A stretch of DNA of 64,000 nucleotides, from assembly GCA_022072055.1 (NCBI GenBank), contig JAJVIK010000008.1:296111-360110 (forward strand), in the 5' to 3' direction. Of this stretch, positions 14,986 through 56,350 are shown piece after piece. The notes below the pieces were generated by a model. It ran no database searches and was not told where the DNA came from. It worked only from the letters and a program-made list of their open reading frames with translations. Position 1 is the first letter of the stretch. Every line of letters begins with the position of its first letter. A program made the translations under genes and the position numbers. Source of the DNA: a bacterium (lineage in GTDB: Bacteria > Hinthialibacterota > Hinthialibacteria > OLB16).

Positions 14986-15975
14986 TCAGCGCCGCCGGTC
15001 CTGGTCGTACAGGAAGAAGTTCTCGACCGTGGAAGGGGGATGTCCGATCAGGACTTGACCTCCTTCGGCGCTTACCAGGAAGGGACACCCTCCGGAGCTG
15101 CGAACCTCCGCGTCTTGGAGATTCAGGACCAGGCGCGACCCAATCCCACAAGAAGGGGGAATTGTAAAGTTCAGCCACCCCAATTGAGCGGCCTCAATTC
15201 CCCGAATTTCCTCATCGCCACAAAGGACAAACGAAACAGTCCCGGATGCTTGGCCAAGCGCAACGCTCCACCCTGAGATTCGCGGTGTCGGAAGGAACGA
15301 CTCGAAGAACAGACCGGCGGGGTTGAAGTGGACCTCGCCGGACACCTCGCCAATCCCCGCCCCCATCGAAACCGAAAGAGGAATCCGGACAGTTCCATTG
15401 GGAAAACCGGAGTCCGAGCCGAGTCCGAGCACCAGCGGCGCCTGCGAGGGGAGTTCAGACCCGACACGGAAAAGCGCGTTGTCCGCGAGCAGCCGGTAAC
15501 GAACGCTATTCTCGTCATACCATCGGGCGAGGTGAAAGCAGATCGGCGTGACCGTCCCCACTCCAGCCTCCAGCTTGGGGCTGAGAGTAACCAGAAGAAT
15601 GACCGCCTCGCCGGGAGCGATCAGACCCTCAACATGGGCCAGAGACGCCGCCAGCGTCCCAACCTCCGGGAAGTCATACGCCAAGAGAAAGGACCCAGTC
15701 ATCGTGGCGGTGCGAACCTCATCCATGGAGAGAATGGTGGGATCGTACTCCAATCTGAAATCCCCCCCGGCGAAACCGTCGCCGTCCGATAACCGGATTT
15801 CGATCACCGTCTGTCCGGGATAGACCGCGGCGCCGTTCGTGGCCTCGACAACCCGGTCCAGGGCGCAAGCCGCGGGTGGGCTTACGGGAACTCCCAAGGG
15901 GGAGAACACGGATTGGAGGACTTGCATGCAGACAGAAAGAGTTATCGGATGTTTCATGGCTCCAGTCGGCTCCAA
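14986..15975 (-). CDS. secreted protein with two cohesin-like beta-sandwich domains
   Basis: Signal-like N-terminus. Two repeats carry AGGDFRLEYDPTIL ... ARWYDENSVRY-type motifs shared with three other ORFs in the locus. Confidence 0.6.
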   Translation of the reverse strand: MEPTGAMKHPITLSVCMQVLQSVFSPLGVPVSPPAACALDRVVEATNGAAVYPGQTVIEIRLSDGDGFAGGDFRLEYDPTILSMDEVRTATMTGSFLLAYDFPEVGTLAASLAHVEGLIAPGEAVILLVTLSPKLEAGVGTVTPICFHLARWYDENSVRYRLLADNALFRVGSELPSQAPLVLGLGSDSGFPNGTVRIPLSVSMGAGIGEVSGEVHFNPAGLFFESFLPTPRISGWSVALGQASGTVSFVLCGDEEIRGIEAAQLGWLNFTIPPSCGIGSRLVLNLQDAEVRSSGGCPFLVSAEGGQVLIGHPPSTVENFFLYDQDRRR

Positions 15976-16022
15976 ACGATGAGCGAATCAGTCCGGTTGC
16001 GGCGGGCTTTGAGTTGTCGTGA

Positions 16023-17375
16023 TCACTCCTCTCCCACGCTCTGCCTCCAATACCTGAGAAACTCAAACAGGTCCCGGCTGTCCACCACGCCATCTTTGGT
16101 CAAGTCGGTTTGGAGGAGCGCTCCAATCACTTGGTCGGCGGGGGATTGGCTGGTGGGGGTCACAGTGGGTGAGGGCGTTGGGCTGTCGCTTGGTGAAACT
16201 CCGATGACCACGGGCCAGATGGGAAGCGGGACGAGCGTGGGTTCTCCAATGATCAAGTCTCCCCCGATTTGCGTGGGGTTCGCCTCCACGCTCACCCGTG
16301 TCGGATCCGTGGCGGCGGTGGCTTGAGACAGGTCGGTTGCATCCGGATTCTCCTCGGCGGGATCCTCGGAGGCCGCCTCTCCATCCCCGAGGATCGTCAC
16401 CATTCCATCCTGAGTGACCACCGGGATCGCGCGGCTCATTTCGTCATACATCTTGGCCTCCAAAAATCGAAGGGGCGCAGCGGTCCCTTCGGTCTGAGTG
16501 GAGGAAGCACTCCCCTCGAGGATGAGCAGCGCATCCGGGCCGGGAGGCAGTCCCTCCACGGCGGCCATCGAGATCGAATAGCGGCCCTCTCGCTTCTTCG
16601 AGATCAGAAGAAAGGAGTCCGAGGGGCCAGTCCGTTGCACACTCCTCAAGTCGACCCATGCGGGATCAAAGCCAATTTCAAAGTCGCATCCCGCCACGTT
16701 CACCAGGTCGCTGCACGAAAGCGCGACCTGGAAGCCTTCACCGGGATGAACCTCAGCGGACCCCAGCGCCAAGCGTCGTCCGACCGCGGTCGGAGTGGGG
16801 GTCTGGGTCGTTCGAGCGGTGGGGGTGAGGGTCGCCGGATGTGTCGGGGTCGGGGTTACCGCCGCCTCAGTCGCGGTGGCATCCTCGCGCCAGGTCGGAG
16901 TGGGGGACTCGATGCGGGAAGGCGTTGGGGTCAGGCTCGGCTCGGTCTGTCCCCCTTGGCGATTGGGTTTATCGGCGCCGAGGGACCCGGGATTCCCCGA
17001 TCCCTGGAGGGTGTCCAGGTTCGACCCACGCTTCGGGTCCGCCCGTTCTCCTTCGATCTCCCTGCTTCCTTGGGGAAGCATCCCCTGGCGCGGCGCTTCA
17101 TCCGCGGGGCGTGGATTCAACCATCCGGGAGCCACTCCCACCAGGACCTTTCCGATTGCTCCGATTGCTCCAAGCGCCCTGTCCCATAGAGTCTGAACCC
17201 CCACGGTTGGACCGGCGGCGATCAAGGCGGAGGCCAGGCAAACCCCGAGGGTGATGGCCACCAGCCTAAGGGTCTGTTTGTGAGGCGAAGGGGATTTGGG
17301 TTTCATCTTGCCGCCTCCTGCTTCCAGATTTCCAGGAACCGGATCAGATCCTTTTCGTCCACTTGGCCGCTGCAA
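16023..17375 (-). CDS. signal-anchored protein: Thr/Pro linker + cohesin-like domain + TP linker + C-terminal dockerin-like Ca-loop tail
   Basis: AGCDFEIGFDPAWVDL...YSISMAAVEGL...LRFLEAKMYDE cohesin-like block, and C-terminal DLTKDGVVDSRDLFEFLRYWRQ. The real start is probably the MKPKSPS... Met near 17309. Confidence 0.6.
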   Translation of the reverse strand: MQRPSGRKGSDPVPGNLEAGGGKMKPKSPSPHKQTLRLVAITLGVCLASALIAAGPTVGVQTLWDRALGAIGAIGKVLVGVAPGWLNPRPADEAPRQGMLPQGSREIEGERADPKRGSNLDTLQGSGNPGSLGADKPNRQGGQTEPSLTPTPSRIESPTPTWREDATATEAAVTPTPTHPATLTPTARTTQTPTPTAVGRRLALGSAEVHPGEGFQVALSCSDLVNVAGCDFEIGFDPAWVDLRSVQRTGPSDSFLLISKKREGRYSISMAAVEGLPPGPDALLILEGSASSTQTEGTAAPLRFLEAKMYDEMSRAIPVVTQDGMVTILGDGEAASEDPAEENPDATDLSQATAATDPTRVSVEANPTQIGGDLIIGEPTLVPLPIWPVVIGVSPSDSPTPSPTVTPTSQSPADQVIGALLQTDLTKDGVVDSRDLFEFLRYWRQSVGEE

Positions 17376-18466
17376 TCGAAATCAGCGGGAACGAAGGGGG
17401 TGGGCGAACCGGTCGGGGTGGGGTCGAAACCGGTTGGGGTCGGAGTCGGGTAAGGGGTGGCGCTTGCCGTGGGCTCCGAGGTCGGGGTCGCTGACACCGT
17501 GCCTGTCGGAGTTGCGGTTTCAGGACCAACCGCGACCGTGATCTCTCCGCCCACGCCAGCGGAGGCGAATCCAAAACCCTCGAGGTTTTCGATTCGCACG
17601 CCGGTCAAGGTGATCGGAGAAGCGGTTCCGGGAGTGGCGGACTCCGACACGGCAACCCTCCAATTGCCAAGAAGAAGCGGATCAACCCCCCCGAGCTCGA
17701 CCGGACCTCTGATGTCAAAATGAACTAGTCCATTAAGAGGAAACAGGTCGATTTGCCAGGCGAGCAGGTCGACCGCCGGTTCGAAGCCAACGATTTGGAT
17801 TTGGGTGGGATCAAAAACAAGACCTCCGGAGATGTTCCCGATCGCCTCCGGCATGGAGACCGAGAAGGGGATGGTCGCCTCGTGTCCGGGGGACGCCGTG
17901 GCGGATGAAAGACTGAGTGTCAGGGGGCGTTCCGAAGGGGGAGTCCCCCCCACTCGGAGGAGACCGTTATCCCCGAGAAGCTCGTGGCGGACGCTGGACT
18001 CGTCATACCAGCGCGCCTCGCGGAAGACAATCGGCGAGATTGTCCCTTCGGGAGCATCCACGCCAGCTTGAACCGTGAGGAGAGCGATAGGCGCGGCCCC
18101 CACTCCGGACAGACCTTCGGCAGCGGCCATTGAAATCGAGAAAAGGCCGGATTCCGGTGACCCATGCGCGACCAGGAAGTCTTCGGTGGCTTCGGCGCGG
18201 TCCACATCTTGAATCAGGAGGACCCGGGGATCGAATGAAAGGATGAAATCCCCTCCGGCGAAACCCGCCAGGCTCGAAAGGATCAGGGGAATCTGCACGG
18301 ACTGTCCGGCGGACGCCGCGCCGTTCGCAACCTGGATCACCGCATCCTCCGCCCTGGCGGTCGGCGCGCAAAGCAACAACGAGACAATCCCGAGCAGCAG
18401 CGCCGGGCGCGGGCTGCTCGGGTGTGAAGTGGGCGGTCCGGAGCGGGAAACTTGGGCTGGGCCCAT
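17303..18466 (-). CDS. secreted protein: two cohesin-like domains + TP linker + C-terminal dockerin-like tail
   Basis: AGGDFILSFDPRVL...FSISMAAAEGL...VFREARWYDESSVRHELL, and a C-terminal DFDCSGQVDEKDLIRFLEIWKQ. Confidence 0.6.
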   Translation of the reverse strand: MGPAQVSRSGPPTSHPSSPRPALLLGIVSLLLCAPTARAEDAVIQVANGAASAGQSVQIPLILSSLAGFAGGDFILSFDPRVLLIQDVDRAEATEDFLVAHGSPESGLFSISMAAAEGLSGVGAAPIALLTVQAGVDAPEGTISPIVFREARWYDESSVRHELLGDNGLLRVGGTPPSERPLTLSLSSATASPGHEATIPFSVSMPEAIGNISGGLVFDPTQIQIVGFEPAVDLLAWQIDLFPLNGLVHFDIRGPVELGGVDPLLLGNWRVAVSESATPGTASPITLTGVRIENLEGFGFASAGVGGEITVAVGPETATPTGTVSATPTSEPTASATPYPTPTPTGFDPTPTGSPTPFVPADFDCSGQVDEKDLIRFLEIWKQEAAR

Positions 18467-18563
18467 GTTGGTTCCTTTCGTGCCCCGCTGTGTGAGGTCG
18501 CGGCTGGAGGGAGAGGCCTTGAGCGCTCTCCCTCCAGCCTTCCCAAGCCGGTCCTATGCGCGT

Positions 18564-20219
18564 TCAGCGATTGGAACCGACGGCCTTTCTGAGCATGTAG
18601 ACGGCGTCACCGGAATCGACTCGACCGTCGCCGTTGCAGTCGCCGGAGGCGACCTCTCGAACCCTCAATTGGACTTGTTCTTGGTCGGCGCTGTGACGCA
18701 GGGCGCGGATCGCGTCGCCGGAATCGACTTCACCGTCGCAGACCAGGTCTCCGAGACGGCGACCCCCGGCAACCGTCGCCTGCTCCCTCACCTCGAACCG
18801 GCGCTCTTCTCCCACCGGACCGAGGCCCAGGACCCGACCGTCCTGCCCGAGGGACAGTTCCCGGACTCTCCAGGTGTACTGCCCCAATCCGGGAATCTCG
18901 GTCTCCCAAGTCGCTCCCCTGCAGTGGCGGAAAGCAATCCGGTTTTGGGTGGCATCGCTCACCGACACCAGCGACAGACCTTCCGTTGCGCCTCGATTCC
19001 AGGCGAAGGCAACCGCCGCTTGAGGCCCCGGGAACTCCGTCTGGTTCTCAGCTGAAAGAAGCGTCACCGGATCCCCCATCTCGGGAGGCTCAAGGACTTC
19101 TCCGATCGTGAAATGCCAGGTTTCGGAAAATTCCGTTGGGAGGAGATCCTCCCCATCTTGGATGATGGCTCGGACCTTCCAGCTGTAGCGTTCGTCGAGG
19201 ACCGCTTCGGGAACCACCAGCACATAGCTGGTGGCGTCAGTGAGGATGCTTGTCGGCGGATCCGTAATGCCGTGATGGACCGGGCCCATGGGGTCGCCCC
19301 CCATGGGAGGATCCGCCACCCTGAACTTGATTTCGTAATACACCGCAGTTGGAACTTCGGTCCAACTGAATTCCCCTAAGAGCCCATCCGGGGTTGGGTT
19401 GAGGACAGCCTCATCCGGCGGCGAGATCAATTGGGGCGGTTCCACCGCCGTGGTGACCGGCCCCCAGCAGGCCCCATGGTCTCCGCCATAGTTGTAGTCA
19501 AACTGGATCGGGTCGCACCATTCGCCGGGACCCTCCGCGCCGATCGCGCGCACTCGCAACCGATAGGCGCCCTCCCCGCGATTCGATCCATAACGAGGCC
19601 CCGATCCGACCGCCGTCTGAAATCTCCAGGCCTCACCGCTCACGATTCGGTATTCGGGACCGTTGGAGGTCTCCAGGCAGATTTGGTATTGGAAGGCGCC
19701 GGGCGATCGCCTCCAGCGAAACTCATAGTTGTTGCCCTCAACCAGGTCGTAGCCATCAGCCGGGAACAAGACCTCCGGCTTGCTCGGACCGGGTCCGCCG
19801 GGTGTGATGTCACGGGCTACCGTGAAATACCGGATTTCACTCCACGGTCCGAAGGTGGCATTCTGATGCTTGTGGATGGTGTCCGGATCGGCGTACAGGC
19901 ACCGCACCTCCCAGCCGAAAGTTCCTTCCTCGGAAGTCCCGAAACTCAGGCGATCATGCCGGGCAAAGAGGATGTAGCTTTCAAATTCAAAGGAGGTGGC
20001 GGAAATTCTCACCTCGTAGGCCCATGCGTCCGCCACGGCCTCCCACTTCAGAAACAGCATGCTCGGGCCCGGCCCCAACGCCACATAACCATCCGGCGGA
20101 GAGAGCAAGACCGGCGCGGTTTCATCCGCGATGGCGCGGGTCGGGAGCCAGACCACCATGGCCCAGATTCCGGCGGCCCATGCGATTCCTTTCTTGGCAC
20201 GACTGCTTGCTTTCCACAT
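18564..20219 (-). CDS. secreted protein with about 4 FN3-like repeats and a canonical two-repeat dockerin at the C-terminus
   Basis: Repeats of the form LLSPPDG...W..V..A..YEVRIS. C-terminal GDLVCDGEVDSGDAIRALRHS ... GDCNGDGRVDSGDAVYMLRKAVG has two Ca-loop + helix segments, as in type-I dockerins. Confidence 0.6.
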   Translation of the reverse strand: MWKASSRAKKGIAWAAGIWAMVVWLPTRAIADETAPVLLSPPDGYVALGPGPSMLFLKWEAVADAWAYEVRISATSFEFESYILFARHDRLSFGTSEEGTFGWEVRCLYADPDTIHKHQNATFGPWSEIRYFTVARDITPGGPGPSKPEVLFPADGYDLVEGNNYEFRWRRSPGAFQYQICLETSNGPEYRIVSGEAWRFQTAVGSGPRYGSNRGEGAYRLRVRAIGAEGPGEWCDPIQFDYNYGGDHGACWGPVTTAVEPPQLISPPDEAVLNPTPDGLLGEFSWTEVPTAVYYEIKFRVADPPMGGDPMGPVHHGITDPPTSILTDATSYVLVVPEAVLDERYSWKVRAIIQDGEDLLPTEFSETWHFTIGEVLEPPEMGDPVTLLSAENQTEFPGPQAAVAFAWNRGATEGLSLVSVSDATQNRIAFRHCRGATWETEIPGLGQYTWRVRELSLGQDGRVLGLGPVGEERRFEVREQATVAGGRRLGDLVCDGEVDSGDAIRALRHSADQEQVQLRVREVASGDCNGDGRVDSGDAVYMLRKAVGSNR

Positions 20220-20244
20220 TTTCCTAAATCCTCCCTTTCTCGAT

Positions 20245-21000
20245 TTAGGCCGCCGTATCCTTGCCGCCTATGCCCGAAAGCGGCATGGGAATGGTTCTTA
20301 AGTCCACTTCAACCTCGCTTCCATCCACTCGGTACGCCCTCGCCTCTCGGATTGAGAGCGTGGGTGTTTCTCCTTCGCTTTGTGTTCGAACCGGGATCTC
20401 CAGGATCGGCGCGAGCCCGCTCATTGGGACACCCTGTCCCGCCGCCATGGACACTCGGATCATTCCGTCGCCGACCTTGCTTTCCATCAGGAACCCGCGG
20501 TTGACCTCACCGAGCTTGACCGGATCGGGACTGAGGGTCCTCATGTCATAGACAAGAACCAGATCAAGCGCCGCGATCTCCTCTTTGGCCTCCGCGGCGA
20601 TCCCAAAACCGGTGATGGGCGCAAGGACCGGTGGGGTTTGAAGCCGGACAATTCCAAGGATCAGCAGTGTGGCGCAAACACCCGCGGCGAAGGCCATCCG
20701 CGGTGGACTGGCGAACAATCCGCCTAGCGTGAGCCGCTTCCCGGGATCCCTCGATCCCTTGGTCAAGTCCTCTCGGACCAGGGTCCCGCGGATATCCCGC
20801 AGCAGGGTCTTGGGGGGCGGGACATGCCGGAAGCTTGTCACCAGATTCGATGTACGCCGCATCTCCTGGTACTCCTTCCGGCAGGAAGGACAGATCTCGA
20901 GATGACCGTTCAGCCAGACCTTCTCTTCCTCGGCCAGCTCGTCATCCACCGCCGCCGACACCAGGTCGAGGTCGCATTCCGACGGATTCTTCGTGTGCAT
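20245..21000 (-). CDS. anti-sigma factor (zf-HC2, single TM) whose extracytoplasmic domain is cohesin-like
   Basis: N-terminal C-x22-H-x3-C-x2-C (ECDLDLV...NGHLEICPSC) and a TM segment (AFAAGVCATLLILGIV). The C-terminal part, LVLVYDMRTL...GMIRVSMAAGQGVP...LSIREARAYRVDGSE, aligns with the cohesin-like domains of the four downstream proteins. Confidence 0.7.
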   Translation of the reverse strand: MHTKNPSECDLDLVSAAVDDELAEEEKVWLNGHLEICPSCRKEYQEMRRTSNLVTSFRHVPPPKTLLRDIRGTLVREDLTKGSRDPGKRLTLGGLFASPPRMAFAAGVCATLLILGIVRLQTPPVLAPITGFGIAAEAKEEIAALDLVLVYDMRTLSPDPVKLGEVNRGFLMESKVGDGMIRVSMAAGQGVPMSGLAPILEIPVRTQSEGETPTLSIREARAYRVDGSEVEVDLRTIPMPLSGIGGKDTAA

Positions 21001-21035
21001 CGTCGTTCCTCCCGACTGTGAGGGAGTCCCTTCCG

Positions 21036-21614
21036 CTACAGGATCTCCGCCAACGGACTCAGTTGCTTTCGCAACGCCTGACGGGCGCGTCGCAGACGAC
21101 TGCGGACAGTCTCCAACGGGATTTGCTCCAACTCGGCAATTTCGGCGTAGGAAAGACCCTCGATGTCGCGCAACACCACAGGCGTGCGATAGATGGGATC
21201 CAGGTTGGCCAAAGCCTGTTCCACCTGTTCCACGGTTTCTCTCTCCTCCAAGGCGTCGCGCGGGGACACGACTGTTTCCTCGGGAACGCTAAGTTCGATC
21301 TCGGACCAATCGCTCTCTTCATCGAGAGCGGACCTCCCGGAGCGCGTCTTGTATTTCCTATGATCGAAATGCAGGTTTGTGAGGATTCTTCGGAGCCAAG
21401 CGTGGATGGTTGCTCCATTTCGGCAGCTTGCATTGGACGAAATCGCGCGTAGGGCGGTGGATTGGAGGAGGTCTCGGGCTTCTTCTTCCGATCCGGTGAG
21501 CCGGAAGGCCAGGTTGTAGAGGGGGGGAGCGTGCCGCTCAAAAAGGTCCCCAAAAGCCTGGACATCACCTTTTCTCCATTTTTCCCAAAGAATTTGATCC
21601 ACTTCCGCGCCCAT
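21036..21614 (-). CDS. ECF (sigma-70 family group IV) RNA polymerase sigma factor
   Basis: Region 2 (FERHAPPLYNLAFRLTG), region 4 (LRDIEGLSYAEIAELEQIPLETVRSRLRRARQAL). Immediately upstream of the anti-sigma gene. Confidence 0.85.
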   Translation of the reverse strand: MGAEVDQILWEKWRKGDVQAFGDLFERHAPPLYNLAFRLTGSEEEARDLLQSTALRAISSNASCRNGATIHAWLRRILTNLHFDHRKYKTRSGRSALDEESDWSEIELSVPEETVVSPRDALEERETVEQVEQALANLDPIYRTPVVLRDIEGLSYAEIAELEQIPLETVRSRLRRARQALRKQLSPLAEIL

Positions 21615-21835
21615 CGGTCGGACTCCTTGGCTTCAGTCCCTGGCGCCTTCACTAATAGAAGACGACAATTCCGGCGGGCGGTGTTCAAATTCCTCCTTGG
21701 GGGCATGCAGGCTTCGAGCCAAGTGGGATTGGCCGGAGCCGACGCCAGTCCAGTGTCCATCTTCGCTCACCCTTTGGGTCGGGATGGCGGATCAGTGATT
21801 GCGGGAGGTTTGGGCTGTGTGAGGGGCTATTGGGT

Positions 21836-27676: not shown

Positions 27677-29866
27677 CTATCGAATCAGATTCACCAGTTC
27701 CTGCAACACCTGGTCCCCGGTGGTGATGACCCGCGCGTTGGCCTGGAAGGCGCGCTGAGCAAGGATCAGGCTCACAAACTCCTCGGAGATATCCACGTTG
27801 GAGAGTTCCAGTTCGCTGGAGGCGATGTCTCCCCGCGCGAGCGTTCCTGGAGTCCCGAGCACCGGGTCGCCCGAGTTGCTGGACTGAACGAAGAGGTTAT
27901 CGCCCCTTCGCAGCAAGCCCCCCTCGTTGGCGAAACTGGCAAGCAGGATTTGGGCGAGGGTCCGCGTGGTGCCGTTCGAGAACACCCCGGTGATGGTTCC
28001 ATCCGGCCCGATGTTGATGGTTTCCAGTCGCCCCACCGGGCTGCCGTCCTGCGCCAGGATCGCGGCGCTGGTGGCGGAGGCGTTCTGGGTCACATCCGTG
28101 AAGTCGAACTCGATGGTGAGCGAATCCACGCCGCCGTTGGCGGGATCGGTCCCATCCGGGTCGAACTGTATCACCGGGTTGCCCGTGAGGATGTTGCCGT
28201 TGTCATCGGTTCCGTAGTTGTCGAAGTTTCCATTGGCCAGGAACACCAGCCGCCCGGTCGCGGCGGTCGGCGGGCTATCGTCCGAGTGCGGCACGATAAC
28301 CTGGTAGTTCCAGGAGTTGAGCAGGGCGTTGGCGGTGTGGAAGGTGTTCGTGCCGGTGATGCCTCCGGCGGTGACCGAAAACCCATCGGTTGTGGAGGAA
28401 AGTCCGAAGTCACGCTCGTTGAACAGACGGGTGATCGCTCCGGAAGCGCTGGCCGTCCCGGCGTTGACTCCATCGTCGTCGGTGTGAATCCGCACATTGG
28501 TGAGCGCGGCCGTGGGGGAGCTGATCCGGAAGGAGCCATCGGGGAGGAGCGACACGGTGATGTCCGTGGCGCCGGCAATGGTGTTGAGCTGGGTTTCGAG
28601 GTTGGCGCGGAGGTCCTCGAGTGTGGTGTTCGCGCCGACCGCGGTGACCAGGGTGTCGGTGGCGGTGGTGGTGGCGCCGATGGTGGAGCCGGCGGCGATT
28701 ACGATACTCGTGGTTCCGGCGGTGACCCCAAGCGAACGTCCCTCACTGTCAAACAGAGAGGTGAGCAGGTCCGTGGCTTCGCCCGGGACCCTGCGGGTGT
28801 CACGCGCAAAGGTGGTCACCACGGTCCGAGCGTTGCCTTGGGAATCGTACACCTCGGTGGAACTGGTGGCGTCCGCCTGACGGAACACCCGGGTGGTGGT
28901 GCCGGTGTTGGCGGTCACATCGATGTCCCCATCCAATTCGCCATCGCTGAAGATTCGGCGAATGGCGGTTTTCTCACCCCCGTTGATGTCCACGGCCGTA
29001 ACCTGCAGGTCGGTGAGGGTTTCGGCGCCCGCCTCAATTCGAAGGGCGCCCGTGGAATCGACGACCACATCCAGGGTGGTGCTTCCAGTAAGGCTCCGGA
29101 GGGCGTCACGCAGGCTAGCGGCCAGATCGCCGAGCGATGTGGATTGGGAGATCGTGAGCACATCGGTCGAACTGAACGTCACGGGAACCCCCGGAGGAAC
29201 CGTGTTGTATGTTCCGCCCGAGATGCGGATCGTGTCGCCCGCGTTCAGGCCGAGTGGCTGTCCCTGGTCATCAAACAGGGTGGCCAGGGTGTTCAAAGAG
29301 CTAGCCCCCGAGGGTTGGGCGTTCGTGCTCAGGTTCCCGCCCAACGTCGCGGTCTGGGTGGGGATGGCATCCGACAGGCTGTTGAAGTCAATCTGGATCG
29401 CGCTCGGCGGTAGGGTCGTGTCGATTTCGCCCTGACTGTTGGCGACCTGGCCGAGCAGGCGGAAACCGTTCCCGGGGCGTGTGATGAACCCTTCCTCATC
29501 CAACCCGAAGTTGCCCGCGCGGGTGAAGAAGGTTCCGCCCGCTCCATCGCTGAGGGCGAAGAATCCGCCGCCGCGAATGGCGAGATCGAGTAACCGCCCG
29601 GTCTGTTGGGGGCTTCCCTGTGTGAAGACCGTGTCGATCGCGTCGGTCCTCACCCCCAGGCCGATCTGTCGTGGGTTAATGCCGCCACGACCGCCGGTGG
29701 CGCCGGCCGCGCCCGAAAGCGTCTGGCTGAACAGGTCCGAAAAAGTCAGCCGGGCCCGACGATATCCGGTGGTGTTCACATTGGCGATGTTGTTACCGAT
29801 CGTGTCGATGGCGTTTGCCTGTCCGCGCAGACCGGAGATGCCTGAGTACAAGGACCTGATTGTCAT
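27677..29866 (-). CDS. flgE: flagellar hook protein FlgE (unusually long, 729 aa)
   Basis: N-terminus MTIRSLYSGISGLRGQANAIDTIGNNIANVNTTGYRRARLTFSDLF and C-terminus ELSNVDISEEFVSLILAQRAFQANARVITTGDQVLQELVNL are the conserved Flg rod/hook terminal segments. Confidence 0.85.
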   Translation of the reverse strand: MTIRSLYSGISGLRGQANAIDTIGNNIANVNTTGYRRARLTFSDLFSQTLSGAAGATGGRGGINPRQIGLGVRTDAIDTVFTQGSPQQTGRLLDLAIRGGGFFALSDGAGGTFFTRAGNFGLDEEGFITRPGNGFRLLGQVANSQGEIDTTLPPSAIQIDFNSLSDAIPTQTATLGGNLSTNAQPSGASSLNTLATLFDDQGQPLGLNAGDTIRISGGTYNTVPPGVPVTFSSTDVLTISQSTSLGDLAASLRDALRSLTGSTTLDVVVDSTGALRIEAGAETLTDLQVTAVDINGGEKTAIRRIFSDGELDGDIDVTANTGTTTRVFRQADATSSTEVYDSQGNARTVVTTFARDTRRVPGEATDLLTSLFDSEGRSLGVTAGTTSIVIAAGSTIGATTTATDTLVTAVGANTTLEDLRANLETQLNTIAGATDITVSLLPDGSFRISSPTAALTNVRIHTDDDGVNAGTASASGAITRLFNERDFGLSSTTDGFSVTAGGITGTNTFHTANALLNSWNYQVIVPHSDDSPPTAATGRLVFLANGNFDNYGTDDNGNILTGNPVIQFDPDGTDPANGGVDSLTIEFDFTDVTQNASATSAAILAQDGSPVGRLETINIGPDGTITGVFSNGTTRTLAQILLASFANEGGLLRRGDNLFVQSSNSGDPVLGTPGTLARGDIASSELELSNVDISEEFVSLILAQRAFQANARVITTGDQVLQELVNLIR

Positions 29867-29925
29867 TGAAATGCTCCTCCTTCTATCGTTTCATCCCATT
29901 TCTGGAAGCTTCACTCGCTCGAATT

Positions 29926-30663
29926 TCACCCGTTGCCCCGGACCGCGAGCACGCTCGCGAGTTCCACGGAGGTGGATCCGACAGAGATCAGGGTGGTCTG
30001 GCCTCGGAAATCGATCCCGGTGACAGTGCCCACCAGGCTCGTGTCCAAAGCGGTCGATTGCTCCCCTGAGATGGCTTGAACTTCGACCCTGGCGGTCCCG
30101 GGTGGGAGCGGGTTGCCGTCACCATCCTCCTGCGGAACGTCGACATACACACGCCCGCCCTCGACTCGAACTCCTTCGGGGGGATCGGCGGGATTGAAGG
30201 TGGTCTCGAAGATGGTCTGACCCGATTCGCCCTTGAGGCGAAGCGTGATCTGCTCGGCGCCCCCATCCGGGAGATCGAACACAATCTGTTCGTCGCCCGC
30301 GCCCCCGACCTGGACCGTGTCGGACTCCACCTCAACCTCCTTCCCGATCAGCCCCACCGCCGTTGCGTTGATGTTGGTCTGCTGAAACGCGAGGCTCGCC
30401 GCGAGCAGATCGGCGATTTCCGAGAGCTCGCCCAGGCCCTGCATGCTGTCCTCGATCTCCCGGAGCTCATCCAGCGAGCTGAATGAGGTCAGCTGCTGGA
30501 CGAATTCCTCGTTGGTCAGCGGTTCGAGAGGGTCCTGGTTCTGAAGTTGGGCCACCAGGAGACGCAGAAATCCCTCTTGGTCGATGGTGGAAGAAGGGGT
30601 CCGCGTGGTTTCGGTGGGGGTGGTCCCGCCCGGGACACTGAAGATTGGGTTGACTGTCGGCAT
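29926..30663 (-). CDS. flgD: flagellar hook assembly/capping protein FlgD
   Basis: FLRLLVAQLQNQDPLEP motif and a C-terminal FlgD Ig-like region. Confidence 0.8.
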   Translation of the reverse strand: MPTVNPIFSVPGGTTPTETTRTPSSTIDQEGFLRLLVAQLQNQDPLEPLTNEEFVQQLTSFSSLDELREIEDSMQGLGELSEIADLLAASLAFQQTNINATAVGLIGKEVEVESDTVQVGGAGDEQIVFDLPDGGAEQITLRLKGESGQTIFETTFNPADPPEGVRVEGGRVYVDVPQEDGDGNPLPPGTARVEVQAISGEQSTALDTSLVGTVTGIDFRGQTTLISVGSTSVELASVLAVRGNG

Positions 30664-30698
30664 GGCGTTCTCCTCTCAGCTCAGGGGGCGCAGGTTAC

Positions 30699-42913: not shown

Positions 42914-42982
42914 GCCGCGCCGCGAGAGCCCGGGGTCTCCCAGGAAAGTGACGATCCAACGCGGGGGATTTGCCAGATCGCG

Positions 42983-52399: not shown

Positions 52400-55300
52400 A
52401 TGAAACCGAAATTGGGACTGATTCTGGTCTTGATCGTCCTCCCTGTGGCGGGAGTTCAGAAGGTGGCCGCCCAGCCCGAAGCTCTGTTCATCGGATCCGC
52501 CGTCAAGTTCATTTACGTGGACGGGAACTTTGATTTCATGGGGCCGAGCACGCCCTCATGCGCGGAGGGGCTGGCAAATTCCGATGGCGGGAACGATCCG
52601 CTGAGCCCGCTTGGACCTCCCCCAACCCTCAACTCCGGGACCGAACTGTATGTCCCGACCTTTCTCAAGGGTGGGCTTTTCACGGGAACCCAAATCGCGG
52701 TCCAGAATGTCGGGGACGCCTCCTCGGTGGTCCGCATCTTTTACTTCGATGAATCCGAGAATTTCATGGGCTGCGACTCGGGGATTGTCACTCCGGGGTC
52801 CTCTCACGTGTTCGACACCGCCGGGATCCAGGTGGATTTCGGCTGCGCCATCATTCAATCGCTCGACCCGGACTCGATTCCGCTTCAAGATCGCTTTGAT
52901 TGCGTGGGCGAACCAGTCCCCTTCAAGAGGAAAGAAGGGGAGAAACTCGCTTTTGTCCCCGGCCCTCCAATCACCGCTCAAGTTCAAATCAACCATGGAA
53001 CAACCTCGCCGGGGGAGCCGGTTCGGGCCACGACTTTCAACGCGTTCTCGGACCGGATGGGGGATGTCAATTTCCAGAGCAATCGCCTGCGCTACATGCT
53101 TCCCCGGGTGGTGACATCGGCCACCCAAACCACCCTCTTCAATGTTTTCAACACAACCCCGCAGGCGACCATCGTGGACCTCACCTACCGGGATGAAGCC
53201 AGTGGCGCGGTGATCCACTCGGCGAGCCTCTATCTGACCGGGTATGACACCCAACCCTACAACGTGAGGGATGTGCTTCAGCAGGATTTCCATGGATCGG
53301 TGATTCTGGAAGTGACGGATGGAGTCGAGACGCCCTTGGCGATTGTCGCCCATCGGGTCAACCTCTCGCCGCTCCTGGTGGGGAGCTACCTCGCGGTCCC
53401 CCTGAATAGCGGAAACTTCGACTACAGCGCCTCGGACCGCGCCTTCGCCCCGATCTCATACGAGCCGGGATCGGAGACTCAGGTCACGCTGGCGAATGTG
53501 GAGAGCTCCACCGAGGACTACACGGTGCAGATCCGTGACTCTTTCGGGGATGTCCTTTCCACTCGGATGGTGACGCTTGGTCCGGAACGCACCGAGACCC
53601 TTTCCTTCCCGGATCCGGGAACATCCGCCGGGCCGCGAGTCGGGTTTGTGCGGATCGACGGAACGGATGAGTTCCACGCGGTCCTCTTCCAGCGTTTCGA
53701 GGACAACACCGAGACCCTCGGTCAATGGGTCACCTATAACATCCACAGCGGCGATGAAACCGTGGGATTCACTCCCTTCGGAGAGAAAGGGAGTCTTCCC
53801 GAGGAGAACGGCGCGGCGGATCTCCTCGCGCTCCCGATGGCGGGGAAACTGGATGCTGCTCACGGACGGGTGACTGAAATCCTCCTCAGCAATCTGAATC
53901 CGCTTCCCGGACTCTCCGCCGCGAACATCCATGTCTATGACAGCGCGGGACTCCGGGATGTTCACTGCGTGCTGCTCCAACCCCTTGAGACCCTTCGCGT
54001 TCCAGTCGATTTCCCTCGCCTCGGCGAAGGGGCGCTGGCCTCGATTGTCATCAAGGGCGCCTCCACCAGCCAAAGGCCGAGCGTGGGGATGAATCAGTTC
54101 AACACCTTCGCCCTCGCGGCGGTGGCGATCCAACGAAATGTGTCCCTTCCCGATCCTCCCGATGCCTCGGTGGAACTCGCCCCCGGCGGCAACGATGTTT
54201 CCGCGTCCTTCGCGGGGAGGTTTGCGTTGGATAATCCGGACAACGGTCCGTATACCCTGTTTTTCCCTGACCTCCGAGGCTCAGCGGACTCCGAGGGTCC
54301 GATGGATGCGCTGAGCTTCCAAGTGATCGGCGATCCGGGGGCTCCGGGAACTCAGATCGGGGTGATCTTCTTCAGCGAGTCGGATGTGGTTGGAACAACA
54401 GTCTCGCCTGTCCTGGCTTATCCGGCGGGCTTTCGCGTGGAGCCGGAGGATATTCCCTCTCAAGCGCGCAGCGCGGCGGCTTTTTCACTGATCGCCAACG
54501 GCACCGCCGCCCTGGGCTTCTCCGCCATCGACAGACTTAACGTATACGCCTTGTTCCGTCATGTTTTCGAGGCCGGAACGCCCCTCCTGGTCCCCTATGG
54601 TCCGATCTCGGGGGTGGCCGAGCGGAATGCACCCTCGGCGTCGGGGGACGGTGGACGGGTCCTTGCCGCTTATGAGTCGATTCCGGACTCGGGCCTGGGG
54701 ACCTTGGATCCGGTCTACTCCGGGTACGCTTATCACCTGCCCTTGCTTCTGGCGGATGAGGGGTTTGACGCCACGCTCACCATTCAGAACGCGGGGCTGT
54801 TCCCCGGCGCGGTCGAGGTCATCCTGCGACGTGAAGGAGCGCTCAAGTCCTCGCCCCTTGTCCGCTCCTTGAAGGACCTCCTTCCGATGGAAGCCGCATT
54901 GGGCGAAAAGCTCCTTCTCTCGAGCGCGGACCAGGTGATCCACCTCGACCCTCTTCGCCCTGGGACCTCCCAGTCGTTGCGCGTGTCGGAGATCGTGGGA
55001 GCCGGATTTCGAGGAAGCGCGGTGATTCGCTCCGCGCAGCCGCTGGCGGTGATGGCCCAGCTTGAAAGCGGCGGGACATCCGCAGCGTACACCGCCGAGC
55101 CTTACGAGCTCAGATATGTCTTCAATGGGATCCCCTTCTTCAGCGAGGGATCCCAGGCCGCTTACTGCCCGCTCATCTTGGACCGCGGGCACGGATGGGA
55201 CACCGGAATCATTGTCCAGAACCTGAACAAACTGGTGGACGCCAAGGTGCGGGTGGACCTTTACTCCAACGCGGGCGAGGTCCTTGAAACGCGGAGTGGG

Positions 55301-56350
55301 TTCATCGCGCCAGGCTCCTCGGCAAGGTTTGATTTCCCCGCGAGCGCGAATGAGATCGATCAGGAGCCGAGCGCCTCGAACTGGCTCCAGGTCATCTCGG
55401 AGGAGATCTGGCAGGAGGGGACCCCTCAAGCTCTTTCCAGCAATATCGCCGTGGTGGCGCACTTGGTGAGAGGCAATGACTCCGGGTGTGTACTGGAATC
55501 GGTCCTCTACAACGCCCTTTCGGAGGGGGAGGCGTTCAACTGGCCCGGAGTCCTGAACGGGGCCGGGACAAGGCACCTGCTGATCCCCTCCTTCCAGAAG
55601 AGTTTCGGAGAGGGACAAGTGAGCAGCGTGGTTTCCGTTGTGAATGTGAACCCGCACCAAGGCTCCAGCACGCTTTCCAATGTCCGCTTTCTGGGGGATG
55701 GCTTCACCACCAATCTGAGCTCGATCTCGGTTCCCCATCGCGAGTCCTTCTTTCTCGATTCGGCAAACTTGCTGGGAATCCCCCCCGGATCCGCGGGGGT
55801 CCTGGCCATGAGCGCCCTGCCCGCGGGCAGCGGCCAGGTGGCCGGTCCCGGTTTCGCGGCGATGGTCCTCCATCGCGCCGAGGGATTGCTCCCTCACCTC
55901 CCCTGCGATGCCACGCCACCAACATCGACACCCACCGATTCTCCCACAGAGACTCCTTCTTTCACGGGCACGCCCACCTCTCCCCCCACCGAGACTCCAA
56001 CCGGCACCCCATCTTTGGTTTCCACCGAAACCGCCACGATCACGGACACCCCCTCCTCGACCGTCACTCCGACCGAGGCGCTCGTGGTCCCAACCGAGAC
56101 CCCCACATTCACCTCTGAGGGACCGACGCCCACGGACACCCTCGGGGGACCGAGCCCGACCGCCAGCCCAAGCCCCACCGAAACCCTGGTGGGACCGAGC
56201 CCCACGCCAACAAATATGTTCGAAGGCCCAACGCCCACAGCAACCCCGACGGAGGATGAGCTTCACCGCGCGGACATCAATCGGAATGGTCGGGTGGATG
56301 AGGAGGACTTGCTGCTGTTGCTCAAGTACTGGTTTCAGTTGGTGGACTGA
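52400..56350 (+). CDS. 1316-aa secreted protein: at least 7 CARDB-like beta-sandwich repeats + Thr/Pro-rich linker + C-terminal dockerin-like tail
   Basis: Signal peptide. Recurrent repeats of about 100 aa (IAVQNVGDAS..., VTLANVESST..., LTIQNAGLFP..., IIVQNLNKLV..., SVVSVVNVNP...). TPT/SPT linker. C-terminal DINRNGRVDEEDLLLLLKYWFQLVD. Confidence 0.7.
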   Translation: MKPKLGLILVLIVLPVAGVQKVAAQPEALFIGSAVKFIYVDGNFDFMGPSTPSCAEGLANSDGGNDPLSPLGPPPTLNSGTELYVPTFLKGGLFTGTQIAVQNVGDASSVVRIFYFDESENFMGCDSGIVTPGSSHVFDTAGIQVDFGCAIIQSLDPDSIPLQDRFDCVGEPVPFKRKEGEKLAFVPGPPITAQVQINHGTTSPGEPVRATTFNAFSDRMGDVNFQSNRLRYMLPRVVTSATQTTLFNVFNTTPQATIVDLTYRDEASGAVIHSASLYLTGYDTQPYNVRDVLQQDFHGSVILEVTDGVETPLAIVAHRVNLSPLLVGSYLAVPLNSGNFDYSASDRAFAPISYEPGSETQVTLANVESSTEDYTVQIRDSFGDVLSTRMVTLGPERTETLSFPDPGTSAGPRVGFVRIDGTDEFHAVLFQRFEDNTETLGQWVTYNIHSGDETVGFTPFGEKGSLPEENGAADLLALPMAGKLDAAHGRVTEILLSNLNPLPGLSAANIHVYDSAGLRDVHCVLLQPLETLRVPVDFPRLGEGALASIVIKGASTSQRPSVGMNQFNTFALAAVAIQRNVSLPDPPDASVELAPGGNDVSASFAGRFALDNPDNGPYTLFFPDLRGSADSEGPMDALSFQVIGDPGAPGTQIGVIFFSESDVVGTTVSPVLAYPAGFRVEPEDIPSQARSAAAFSLIANGTAALGFSAIDRLNVYALFRHVFEAGTPLLVPYGPISGVAERNAPSASGDGGRVLAAYESIPDSGLGTLDPVYSGYAYHLPLLLADEGFDATLTIQNAGLFPGAVEVILRREGALKSSPLVRSLKDLLPMEAALGEKLLLSSADQVIHLDPLRPGTSQSLRVSEIVGAGFRGSAVIRSAQPLAVMAQLESGGTSAAYTAEPYELRYVFNGIPFFSEGSQAAYCPLILDRGHGWDTGIIVQNLNKLVDAKVRVDLYSNAGEVLETRSGFIAPGSSARFDFPASANEIDQEPSASNWLQVISEEIWQEGTPQALSSNIAVVAHLVRGNDSGCVLESVLYNALSEGEAFNWPGVLNGAGTRHLLIPSFQKSFGEGQVSSVVSVVNVNPHQGSSTLSNVRFLGDGFTTNLSSISVPHRESFFLDSANLLGIPPGSAGVLAMSALPAGSGQVAGPGFAAMVLHRAEGLLPHLPCDATPPTSTPTDSPTETPSFTGTPTSPPTETPTGTPSLVSTETATITDTPSSTVTPTEALVVPTETPTFTSEGPTPTDTLGGPSPTASPSPTETLVGPSPTPTNMFEGPTPTATPTEDELHRADINRNGRVDEEDLLLLLKYWFQLVD

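What the first reader, a model, noticed from the sequence alone, without database searches (positions are those of the whole stretch)
14986..21614. ECF sigma / anti-sigma pair wired to a tandem array of cohesin-like and dockerin-like secreted proteins (candidate surface-assembly regulon)
Six co-directional genes on the minus strand are packed with small gaps or overlaps: ECF sigma (21036-21614), zf-HC2 anti-sigma (20245-21000), an FN3-repeat protein ending in a canonical two-segment dockerin (18564-20219), two proteins made of cohesin-like domains, TP-rich linkers and a single dockerin-like Ca-loop tail (17303-18466; 16023-17375), and a double cohesin-like protein with no tail (14986-15975). 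All the cohesin-like domains share visible motifs (AGGDF.L.FDP..L, SISMAA.EGL, F.EA+.YDE). Cohesin/dockerin pairs are the glue of clostridial cellulosomes. A compact locus that combines them with a dedicated ECF signalling pair, in what looks like a PVC-type genome, is not a described arrangement as far as I can judge from the sequence alone. Function and novelty are both inference.
Basis: partly seen in the sequence, partly recalled or inferred. Interest (0 to 1): 0.78.

Follow-up and report, generated by a model that had tools for sequence, protein, structure and literature searches.

The report
Sigma-factor operon with cohesin-tipped anti-sigma sensor
A rare operon in an uncultured Omnitrophota bacterium couples a stress-type sigma factor to a small set of "molecular Velcro" (cohesin/dockerin) proteins, and the membrane sensor that holds the sigma factor in check carries a cohesin module on its outer end, so protein docking may itself be the signal that controls the genes.

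Summary
Six co-directional minus-strand genes sit at the stated coordinates. Two start codons are probably a little further in (P5 at 17306, P6 at 15957). They encode an ECF sigma factor, a zinc-finger anti-sigma, a protein with four FN3-like repeats and a two-segment dockerin (P3), and three cohesin proteins (P4, P5, P6). Predicted structures of P4 and of the anti-sigma match solved cohesins and little else.

The cassette recurs as a unit, with different flanking genes, in about ten lineages. It is preceded by a conserved ECF-type promoter (TGAACAC-N14-GTCGTCT). The P3 dockerin is its most conserved part (75 % identity, against 53 % for sigma).

An exhaustive search of 1.84 billion proteins found only about ten such anti-sigmas. 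I found no description in the literature.

Best reading: a self-regulated, non-catalytic cohesin–dockerin assembly whose state is read by the anti-sigma through cohesin–dockerin binding. That binding is inferred, not shown. I rate it a new variant of known kinds, of moderate to high interest.

The parts
21662..21687 (-). ECF-type promoter motif TGAACAC-N14-GTCGTC, 48 nt upstream of the sigma ATG
   Evidence: The same motif with identical spacing occurs in 11 of 11 instances across the cassettes. In L014 it lies between the sigma and anti-sigma genes. It is the only convincing copy in the 64-kb window. The other hit, at 5488-5512, is at chance level (0.72 expected) and lies inside a helicase gene.
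21036..21614 (-). ECF (group IV) sigma factor, 192 aa
   Evidence: Pfam Sigma70_r2, r4_2 and Sigma70_ECF. TIGR02937 sigma70-ECF scores 92.6 bits against a cut-off of 42.9.
20245..21000 (-). Anti-sigma factor, 251 aa. It has an N-terminal zinc-binding anti-sigma domain (20821-21000), one transmembrane helix (20641-20694) and a C-terminal type-A cohesin module (20281-20628).
18564..20219 (-). P3: secreted protein, 551 aa, with four FN3-like repeats and a C-terminal two-segment dockerin (18567-18758)
   Evidence: Dockerin_1 scores 22.8 bits here and 16-23 bits in 7 of 7 orthologues. fn3 hits 6 of 7. In the PDB profile search the C-terminus hits only dockerins. The dockerin is the most conserved segment of the cassette: 75 % mean identity, 35 of 64 columns invariant.
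18502..18539 (-). Conserved GC-rich hairpin (14-17 bp) 25 nt after the P3 stop, without a U-tract
   Evidence: Folding energy -47.7 kcal/mol, z -2.5. It is conserved in 5 cassettes, with compensatory changes at 5 pairs. It follows P3 even where the next gene differs (L003).
17303..18466 (-). P4: secreted protein, 387 aa, with a type-A cohesin (17942-18346), a type-B cohesin (17528-17932), a Thr/Pro linker and a single calcium-loop-plus-helix tail (17306-17392)
   Evidence: Cohesin scores 35.1 bits. The AF2 model has pLDDT 80. Foldseek matches the cohesin dyad 3l8q at E 2.6e-14 and type-I cohesins at TM about 0.8. The PDB profile search returns cohesins only.
16023..17306 (-). P5: 427 aa, with an N-terminal signal anchor, about 140 aa of disordered spacer, a type-A cohesin (16377-16781), a linker and a single calcium-loop tail (16026-16112). 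Its start codon overlaps the P4 stop (ATGA).
   Evidence: Cohesin scores 22.4 bits. The type-A HMM gives E 7e-64 for the window protein (which is in the seed) and 1e-17 to 1e-37 for its orthologues. The ATGA overlap is kept in every cassette. The anchor is inferred from a long hydrophobic region with Pro after it in 3 of 4 orthologues.
14986..15957 (-). P6: secreted protein, 323 aa, with type-A (15454-15858) and type-B (15034-15444) cohesins and no tail. It is absent from one cassette (L017).
   Evidence: Cohesin scores 26.0 bits. It is 37 % identical to P4 over 283 aa. HMM typing is, and one search shows the L017 cassette without it.
52400..56350 (+). Possible client: a 1316-aa secreted protein with a Thr/Pro linker and the same single-segment tail (56267-56347, ADINRNGRVDEEDLLLLLKYWFQLVD)
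   Evidence: Found by a regex scan. Dockerin_1 scores 16.4 bits against profile positions 27-55, with no other domain. Similar tails occur on proteins encoded beside the cassette in L003, L007 and L008.

Best explanation
**What it is.** This is a self-contained, self-regulated operon for a small, non-catalytic cohesin–dockerin assembly on the outer side of the cytoplasmic membrane. Its assembly state is read by the anti-sigma factor through a cohesin–dockerin contact.

**Shown**
- An ECF sigma factor and a zinc-finger (class I) anti-sigma factor head the operon, behind a conserved ECF-type promoter.
- The anti-sigma crosses the membrane once and ends in a cohesin module. That module is of the same subtype (type A) as one module in each of P4, P5 and P6.
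- P3, always the third gene, is a secreted FN3-like protein. Its dockerin is nearly invariant and is the most constrained sequence in the cassette.
- P4 and P5 carry a single dockerin-like segment (a 'half-dockerin'), and their genes are always translationally coupled.
- None of the six proteins carries a recognisable catalytic domain.

**Inferred**
- The P3 dockerin binds type-A cohesins, including the one on the anti-sigma.
- In that case P3 acts as a co-regulator, as RseB does in the rpoE-rseA-rseB order. The scaffold cohesins on signal-anchored P5 and on soluble P4 and P6 compete for it.
- The anti-sigma is then occupied or vacant according to how many free dockerin and cohesin sites exist. 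That would set sigma release and operon transcription, a supply-and-demand feedback.
- The half-dockerin tails probably form a second specificity for the two type-B cohesins. They may also recruit other tail-bearing secreted proteins.
- I cannot predict whether the feedback is positive or negative.
For: - **Genes and domains:**
- **Retained contact residue.** The invariant beta-3 Asp (P4 D73 = anti-sigma D146) aligns with Asp39 of the C. thermocellum cohesin. Asp39 is a residue that contacts the dockerin recognition pair (PMC5772552).
- **Symmetrical dockerin.** P3 has an identical, invariant Ser-Gly at recognition positions 10-11 of both segments.
- **Conservation ranking.** P3 dockerin 75 %, tails 56-57 %, sigma 53 %, type-A cohesins 43-48 % (the anti-sigma's own module 36 %), type-B 32 %.
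- **Synteny.** The sigma / anti-sigma / P3 triad is invariant in 10 lineages with unrelated flanks, while the order and number of cohesin genes vary.
- **Promoter and hairpin:**
- **Rarity.** Only 13 proteins score below E 1e-30 among 1.84 billion representatives. All other hits match only the zinc-finger/N-terminal part, apart from one multi-cohesin protein (P0099) hit through the cohesin part.
Against: - No binding test or complex prediction could be run, so which dockerin-like element binds which cohesin is a guess.
- The anti-sigma cohesin is trimmed to about 112 aa. It matches only positions 23-115 of the 135-position type-A profile, and Pfam's Cohesin model does not detect it.
- The first segment of the P3 dockerin lacks a canonical calcium ligand (Val at loop position 3).
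- The motifs shared by type-A modules also occur in an unrelated multi-cohesin protein (P0099). They may therefore reflect fold rather than a shared partner.
- The location (periplasm or cell surface) and the triggering signal are unknown.
- There are no expression data.
Confidence: 0.55

Rival explanations
1. A regulated scaffold for displaying enzymes or other clients, in the manner of a cellulosome or 'planctosome'. P4, P5 and P6 would be scaffoldins that display dockerin- or tail-bearing proteins encoded elsewhere. The sigma/anti-sigma pair would sense an external substrate, as clostridial RsgI sensors do, and the anti-sigma cohesin would merely tether a sensor or client. This can be true together with the best explanation.
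For: - The same half-dockerin tail ends a 1316-aa secreted protein in the window, and occurs on proteins encoded beside the cassette in L003, L007 and L008.
- A neighbouring gene in L014 has a weak Dockerin_1 hit.
- Across the DNA held here there is roughly one extra tail per 30 kb, which suggests many clients per genome (an extrapolation).
- Cellulosome-like systems have been proposed in Planctomycetes and Cloacimonadota.
Against: - No catalytic or carbohydrate-binding domain is present on any cassette protein, or on the tail-bearing window protein.
- The only full dockerin of the cassette sits on a non-catalytic FN3-like protein that never leaves the sigma/anti-sigma pair.
- No ECF promoter copy lies upstream of the candidate client in the window.
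Confidence: 0.2
2. The cohesin folds here are not dockerin receptors. The anti-sigma C-domain would be a beta-sandwich sensor for a non-protein ligand (glycan, lipid or envelope damage). P4, P5 and P6 would be adhesin-like or envelope-structural proteins under ordinary ECF envelope-stress control. The calcium-loop tails would be plain calcium-binding or envelope-anchoring motifs.
For: - The anti-sigma domain is trimmed and invisible to Pfam's Cohesin model.
- Known anti-sigma sensors that control cellulosome genes bind carbohydrates.
- Single EF-hand-like loops are common calcium sites.
Against: - A near-invariant dockerin is encoded right next to the anti-sigma in 10 of 10 lineages. That is hard to explain if nothing in the cassette binds it.
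- The Asp that aligns with the dockerin-contact residue Asp39 is invariant.
Confidence: 0.2
3. P4 and P5 form an obligate heterodimer. Their two half-dockerin tails would pair into one split dockerin (an EF-hand pair), which plugs into a cohesin (type B, or the anti-sigma's). Complex formation itself would then be the event that is sensed.
For: - The P4 stop and P5 start overlap (ATGA or equivalent) in every cassette, even where the gene order is permuted.
- Both tails are conserved, at 56-57 % identity.
- Each matches only the second half of the Dockerin_1 profile when detectable.
- EF-hand-type motifs normally function in pairs (general knowledge).
Against: - The same tail occurs singly on unrelated proteins.
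- No structural test was possible.
- The recognition positions of the tails vary.
Confidence: 0.15

Closest known systems
Clostridial sigma-I / RsgI systems that regulate cellulosome genes (C. thermocellum, A. cellulolyticus, P. cellulosolvens)
   Same: An alternative sigma factor is held by a single-pass membrane anti-sigma whose extracytoplasmic module senses something outside. The output is expression of cohesin/dockerin components.
   Different: - The sigma here is ECF type, not sigma-I.
- The anti-sigma has a zf-HC2 domain, not an RsgI N-domain.
- The sensor is a cohesin. The sensors listed for those RsgI proteins are CBM3, CBM42, CBM35, PA14 and GH modules, plus an Fn3-like sensor known to me only from a reference title.
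- Regulator and structural genes form one operon.
- The host is an Omnitrophota bacterium.
- No enzymes are involved.
E. coli sigma-E / RseA / RseB (rpoE-rseA-rseB)
   Different: - There is no sequence relationship between P3 and RseB, or between the two periplasmic domains.
- The proposed contact is cohesin–dockerin.
- Three further cohesin proteins are co-transcribed as potential competitors.
Non-cellulosomal cohesin–dockerin systems (Archaeoglobus fulgidus cohesin 2xdh, Clostridium perfringens toxin-complex cohesins 2jh2/2vo8, the proposed 'planctosome')
   Same: Cohesin and dockerin modules are used outside cellulose degradation. These are the best structural matches of the anti-sigma domain. 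A system has also been proposed in the related phylum Planctomycetota.
   Different: - None of these is reported as fused to, or co-transcribed with, a sigma/anti-sigma pair.
- Here the partners carry no enzymes.
- Single-segment tails are present.
FecI/FecR/FecA-type cell-surface signalling
   Same: An ECF sigma is controlled by an anti-sigma whose periplasmic domain binds a small docking domain of a partner protein (established knowledge). The logic is the same: a protein–protein contact serves as the signal.
   Different: There is no FecR domain and no TonB-dependent transducer. The docking pair is cohesin–dockerin.

Membership tests
ECF (group IV) sigma factor | Only sigma-2 and sigma-4 regions, matching the ECF family models | tested here: met
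   Sigma70_r2 44.5 bits, r4_2 61.1 bits, Sigma70_ECF 35.6 bits. TIGR02937 scores 92.6 bits against a cut-off of 42.9.
ECF (group IV) sigma factor | Co-transcribed cognate anti-sigma and an autoregulatory AAC(-35)/CGT(-10) promoter | tested here: met
   The anti-sigma gene starts 35 nt downstream of the sigma gene. TGAACAC-N14-GTCGTCT is conserved with fixed spacing in 11 of 11 instances. Promoter activity itself was not tested.
Class I zinc-binding anti-sigma factor (zf-HC2 / ZAS) | H-x3-C-x2-C motif with an upstream Cys/His ligand in a helical anti-sigma domain | tested here: met
Class I zinc-binding anti-sigma factor (zf-HC2 / ZAS) | Binds and inhibits its sigma factor | not testable with these tools
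   This needs two-hybrid, pull-down or reporter assays.
Cohesin (PF00963) | Sequence match to the family model above its curated cut-off | tested here: inconclusive
   P4 (35.1 bits) and P6 (26.0 bits) are above the 24.1-bit cut-off. P5 (22.4 bits) is just below it. The anti-sigma is not detected by Pfam. The anti-sigma and P5 are linked to P4 by blastp and by the type-A HMM.
Cohesin (PF00963) | Nine-stranded jelly-roll fold of solved cohesins | tested here: met
Cohesin (PF00963) | Calcium-dependent binding of a dockerin on the 8-3-6-5 sheet | not testable with these tools
   The only indirect evidence is the invariant beta-3 Asp that aligns with the contact residue Asp39.
Dockerin type I (PF00404) | Two tandem ~22-residue segments, each a calcium-binding loop plus helix | tested here: met
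   This applies to P3 only. It has two segments, DLVCDGEVDSGD… and DCNGDGRVDSGD…. Dockerin_1 scores 22.8 bits in the window against a cut-off of 22.9, 23.2 bits in the L008 orthologue, and hits 7 of 7 orthologues. Segment 1 has Val at loop position 3.
Dockerin type I (PF00404) | Duplicated segment, tested for the P4 and P5 tails | tested here: not met
   P4, P5 and the 1316-aa protein each have one loop plus helix. Where detectable, they match only profile positions 27-55 at 16-18 bits. They are dockerin-like half-modules, not dockerins.
Cellulosome / cellulosome-like enzyme complex | Dockerin-bearing catalytic subunits and a substrate-binding module on the scaffoldin | tested here: not met
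   No catalytic domain or CBM was found on any cassette protein, or on the tail-bearing window protein. Only 64 kb of the genome was examined.
Sigma-I / RsgI | Sigma-I-type sigma factor and an RsgI N-terminal anti-sigma domain | tested here: not met
   The sigma matches ECF models and the anti-sigma matches zf-HC2.
FecIRA-type cell-surface signalling | FecR-type regulator and a TonB-dependent transducer | tested here: not met
   No FecR or TonB-dependent receptor domain was found in any cassette protein.

The most novel reading that the evidence does not exclude
Cohesin–dockerin binding is used here as a transmembrane signalling switch. The anti-sigma's cohesin competes with scaffold cohesins for one invariant dockerin (P3), so the cell transcribes the operon according to how many docking sites are free. 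This would be the first case of the cellulosome 'glue' acting as a sensor input. It would also be a new class of ECF anti-sigma sensor domain, possibly governing a large set of proteins that carry a previously unrecognised half-dockerin tail.
Probability: 0.35. Interest if true: 0.8.

Novelty: new variant of a known kind. Interest (0 to 1): 0.66.

Why it matters
- **A new role for cohesin–dockerin pairs.** They are known as very tight assembly glue, and ECF anti-sigma factors as modular sensors. A natural fusion of the two would show that a docking event can serve directly as a regulatory input. It would give a compact self-measuring circuit for building extracytoplasmic complexes.
- **An entry point into an uncultured phylum.** The cassette gives a defined six-gene route into the cell-envelope biology of Omnitrophota.
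- **A possible targeting tag.** It points to a half-dockerin tail that may address many secreted proteins.
- **Parts for synthetic biology.** It offers an orthogonal sigma/anti-sigma/promoter set with a protein-ligand-gated sensor.
- **Directly testable.** All components are small and soluble or single-pass, so the proposal can be tested in vitro and in E. coli.

Tried and rejected
1. **Word-indexed protein search with the anti-sigma alone.** It found only 2 proteins and understated the family. A profile search and the exhaustive search corrected this.
2. **Other copies of the ECF promoter in the window.** The only other hit (5488-5512, minus strand) is at chance level and lies inside an SNF2 helicase gene. 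I rejected it as a regulon member.
3. **Sigma-70 promoters and intrinsic terminators inside the cassette.** None of either was convincing.
4. **AFDB fold search** for other cohesin-bearing anti-sigmas. The library was unavailable.
5. **Profile of P3 against the PDB.** It gave only weak FN3 and dockerin hits, so the fold of the P3 body stays untested.
6. **P0135,** a 250-aa anti-sigma whose match ran into the C-domain. On reading the sequence, its C-terminus is unrelated.
7. **Two papers were not held**: Peer et al. 2009, and the Fn3-like RsgI sensor paper.
8. **Cellulosome membership.** Rejected, because no catalytic or carbohydrate-binding module was found.
9. **Complex prediction** (cohesin with dockerin).

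Full report
**1. Observation**

Pfam gives the following:
- Sigma (21036-21614): Sigma70_r2, r4_2 and ECF.
- Anti-sigma (20245-21000): zf-HC2.
- P3 (18564-20219): Dockerin_1 at 22.8 bits, 0.1 bit under the curated cut-off.
- P4 (17303-18466): Cohesin, 35.1 bits.
- P5: Cohesin, 22.4 bits, just under the 24.1-bit cut-off.
- P6: Cohesin, 26.0 bits.

NCBIfam confirms an ECF-family sigma factor (TIGR02937, 92.6 bits against a cut-off of 42.9).

The public annotation of an almost identical contig starts P5 at ATG 17306, overlapping the P4 stop as ATGA, and P6 at ATG 15957. I adopt both starts.

The organism is an uncultured Candidatus Omnitrophica/Omnitrophota MAG.

**2.

- A local all-against-all comparison showed that anti-sigma residues ~98-234 are homologous to the first cohesin of P4 (28 % over 159 aa, E 1e-8), and also to P5 and P6.
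- An HMM built from the three 'type-A' modules of the window (P4d1, P5d, P6d1) hits the C-terminal domain of all 8 anti-sigma orthologues tested (E 1e-5 to 1e-14). An HMM of the 'type-B' modules (P4d2, P6d2) hits none of them.
- An AlphaFold2 model built on 9 family members has pLDDT about 90 over residues 129-240.
- All of its top 50 Foldseek PDB hits are cohesins.
- The N-terminal part of the same model matches the anti-sigma domains of RslA, RsiW and MucA.
- C9, H33, C37 and C40 are invariant. That is the complete zinc-binding anti-sigma motif.

The protein is therefore a class I anti-sigma domain, one transmembrane helix, and an outward-facing cohesin. The cohesin is somewhat trimmed, at about 112 aa.

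**3. The other proteins**

- *P4.* The model (pLDDT 80) has two beta-sandwich domains, a disordered Thr/Pro linker and a C-terminal helix. It matches a solved cohesin dyad (E 2.6e-14) and single type-I cohesins at TM about 0.8, rmsd 2.2-2.6 Å. Its family profile hits nothing but cohesins in the PDB.
- *P3.* It and its orthologues hit Dockerin_1 in 7 of 7 cases (16-23 bits, one above the cut-off). They hit fn3 in 6 of 7, one above the cut-off. The dockerin has two segments. The second is canonical and the first has Val at calcium-loop position 3. Both carry the same invariant Ser-Gly at the recognition positions 10-11.
- *P4 and P5 tails.* Each ends in a single calcium loop plus helix: DFDxxGxVDxxDLIrFLExW in P4 and DLxxDGxVxxxDLxEFxxxW in P5. 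By definition these are not dockerins, which are duplicated. I call them half-dockerins.
- *P5 anchor.* P5 has a long N-terminal hydrophobic segment followed by Pro in 3 of 4 orthologues. From this I infer an uncleaved signal anchor.
- *Export signals.* P3, P4 and P6 have ordinary signal peptides, judged from the sequence.
- *No enzymes.* No catalytic or carbohydrate-binding domain is present anywhere in the cassette.

**4. Conservation and rarity**

- The cassette recurs as a unit in about ten lineages: the window, L008 (Omnitrophota OLB16-2), L007, L006/L011, L003/L004/L005/L010, L009, L012/L013, L014/L015, L016 and L017. The flanking genes differ each time.
- The sigma / anti-sigma / P3 triad is invariant. 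The cohesin genes can be permuted (P6-P4-P5 in L003 and L014), and P6 can be missing (L017). P4 and P5 always stay adjacent and translationally coupled.
- Only 3 of 185,579 species-representative genomes carry a P3 relative.
- An exhaustive HMMER scan of 1.84 billion representative proteins with the anti-sigma profile found 13 proteins below E 1e-30. About ten are full-length and three are fragments. Apart from one multi-cohesin protein (P0099), hit through the cohesin part, every other hit matched only the zinc-finger/N-terminal part.
- Mean pairwise identity across cassettes ranks as follows: P3 dockerin 75 % (35 of 64 columns invariant), half-dockerin tails 56-57 %, sigma 53 %, P3 repeats 44-53 %, type-A cohesins 43-48 % (the anti-sigma's own module 36 %), type-B cohesins 32 %.
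- A dockerin more constrained than the sigma factor is what one expects if it has to fit several different partners.

**5. Regulation**

- Upstream of the operon lies TGAACAC-N14-GTCGTCT. It has identical spacing in all 11 instances found across the cassettes. It follows the classic ECF pattern of AAC at -35 and CGT at -10 (established knowledge).
- In the window it sits at 21662-21687, 48 nt before the sigma ATG, and is the only convincing copy in 64 kb.
- In L014 the motif lies between the sigma and anti-sigma genes. Its constant companion is therefore the anti-sigma / P3 / cohesin block.
- L006 has a second copy in front of a small secreted protein.
- No sigma-70-like promoter was found inside the cassette.
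- A 14-17-bp GC hairpin without a U-tract follows the P3 stop in five cassettes, with compensatory changes at five pairs. It probably sets the ratio between the regulatory triad and the downstream cohesin genes. That is an inference.

**6. Mechanism**

*Shown.* This is an autoregulation-type ECF operon whose anti-sigma sensor domain is a paralogue of the cohesins it controls. It sits next to a near-invariant dockerin.

*Supporting detail.* The invariant beta-3 Asp of all type-A modules (P4 D73, anti-sigma D146) aligns with Asp39 of the C. thermocellum cohesin. Asp39 is one of four residues that contact the dockerin recognition pair (PMC5772552).

*Inferred.*
- The P3 dockerin binds type-A cohesins, including the anti-sigma's. 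P3 would then act like RseB in the rpoE-rseA-rseB arrangement.
- The scaffold cohesins on membrane-anchored P5 and on soluble P4 and P6 compete for it.
- The occupancy of the anti-sigma would then report the balance of free dockerins and free cohesins, and would tune sigma release.
- The two half-dockerin tails and the two type-B cohesins may form a second specificity.
- The same tail ends a 1316-aa secreted protein in the window (52400-56350), and occurs on proteins beside the cassette in other genomes. Further clients are therefore likely.

I put 0.55 on this docking-as-signal model. The bare description (an ECF-controlled, non-catalytic cohesin–dockerin operon with a cohesin-bearing anti-sigma) I consider well established.

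*Rivals.*
- An enzyme- or client-display scaffold with substrate sensing. This is compatible with the model above, but no enzymes were seen.
- Cohesin folds that do not bind dockerins. The invariant adjacent dockerin and the exclusively cohesin structural neighbours argue against it.
- A split dockerin formed by the P4 and P5 tails.

**7. Comparison with what is known**

- *Sigma-I/RsgI.* This is the nearest functional analogue. It controls clostridial cellulosome genes through anti-sigma factors whose listed outer modules are CBM3, CBM35, CBM42, PA14 or GH. An Fn3-like sensor is known to me only from a reference title. None of the listed modules is a cohesin. That system also fails the membership tests here: the sigma is ECF type and the anti-sigma is zf-HC2.
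- *Sigma-E/RseA/RseB and FecIRA.* These are analogues in logic only.
- *Non-cellulosomal cohesin–dockerin systems.* They are known in archaea, in C. perfringens, in Planctomycetes ('planctosome') and in Cloacimonadota. None is reported as linked to a sigma/anti-sigma pair.
- *Literature searches.* Full-text searches for anti-sigma with cohesin/dockerin, for ECF with cohesin domain, for cohesin-like with anti-sigma factor, and for Omnitrophota with dockerin found no description of this arrangement.

**8. Verdict**

The feature is real, conserved and rare. It is a new variant of known kinds: ECF signalling and cohesin–dockerin assembly. The new element is a cohesin as the anti-sigma sensor domain. 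Interest 0.66. If cohesin–dockerin docking is shown to gate the sigma factor, the interest would be about 0.8.

Noticed in passing
window 52400-56350 (+): A 1316-aa secreted protein with no recognisable domain. It ends in a Thr/Pro-rich linker and the same single calcium-loop-plus-helix tail as P4 and P5 (ADINRNGRVDEEDLLLLLKYWFQLVD). It may be a client of the cohesin proteins.
   Followed up: partly
L003 9095-10261 (-); L007 8938-9765 (-); L008 1-741 (-): Proteins encoded within a few kb of the cassette in other genomes also carry one dockerin-like segment. The L003 protein has weak multihaem cytochrome c hits, and its segment lies near the N-terminus. The L007 protein has the segment at its C-terminus.
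   Followed up: partly
L006 3612-3637 (+): A second full copy of the ECF promoter motif lies about 150 nt upstream of a 155-aa secreted protein of unknown family, 1.5 kb from the cassette. It may be an extra regulon member.
   Followed up: partly
L014 7934-7959 (+): In this lineage the ECF promoter motif lies between the sigma and anti-sigma genes rather than upstream of sigma. The sigma gene may therefore not be autoregulated there.
   Followed up: partly
window 20248-20280 (-), anti-sigma residues 241-251: The anti-sigma ends in …PM-x8-(K/L)(D/N)T(A/T)A in the closer orthologues. More distant family members end differently. A small non-polar C-terminus could be a protease or PDZ recognition tag, but this is speculation.
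   Followed up: no
window 13022 / L002 9628: The public contig JABWAZ010000061.1 is 99.9 % identical to the window from 22650 down to 13022. It then diverges inside an ABC permease gene, and the public annotation shows an acyl-CoA dehydrogenase/permease fusion there. This is either an assembly chimera in one of the two assemblies or a strain rearrangement.
   Followed up: partly
window 27677-32999 (-): A flagellar hook cluster (FlgE 729 aa, FlgD, FliK). This Omnitrophota lineage appears to be flagellated.
   Followed up: no
window 41108-49523 (-): A caspase-like peptidase C14 fused to an FGE-sulfatase domain (601 aa). It is followed by three genes: two DUF7133/HEAT-repeat proteins (544 aa and 1146 aa) with a HEAT-repeat/cytochrome c protein (490 aa) between them. 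The 1146-aa protein also has weak cytochrome c hits.
   Followed up: no
P0099 (899 aa, from the search; sequence): A protein from an unknown organism with about six tandem cohesins. They carry the same AGGD / ISIA / AELY(D/N)E motifs as the type-A modules, so type A belongs to a wider non-cellulosomal cohesin subfamily.
   Followed up: no
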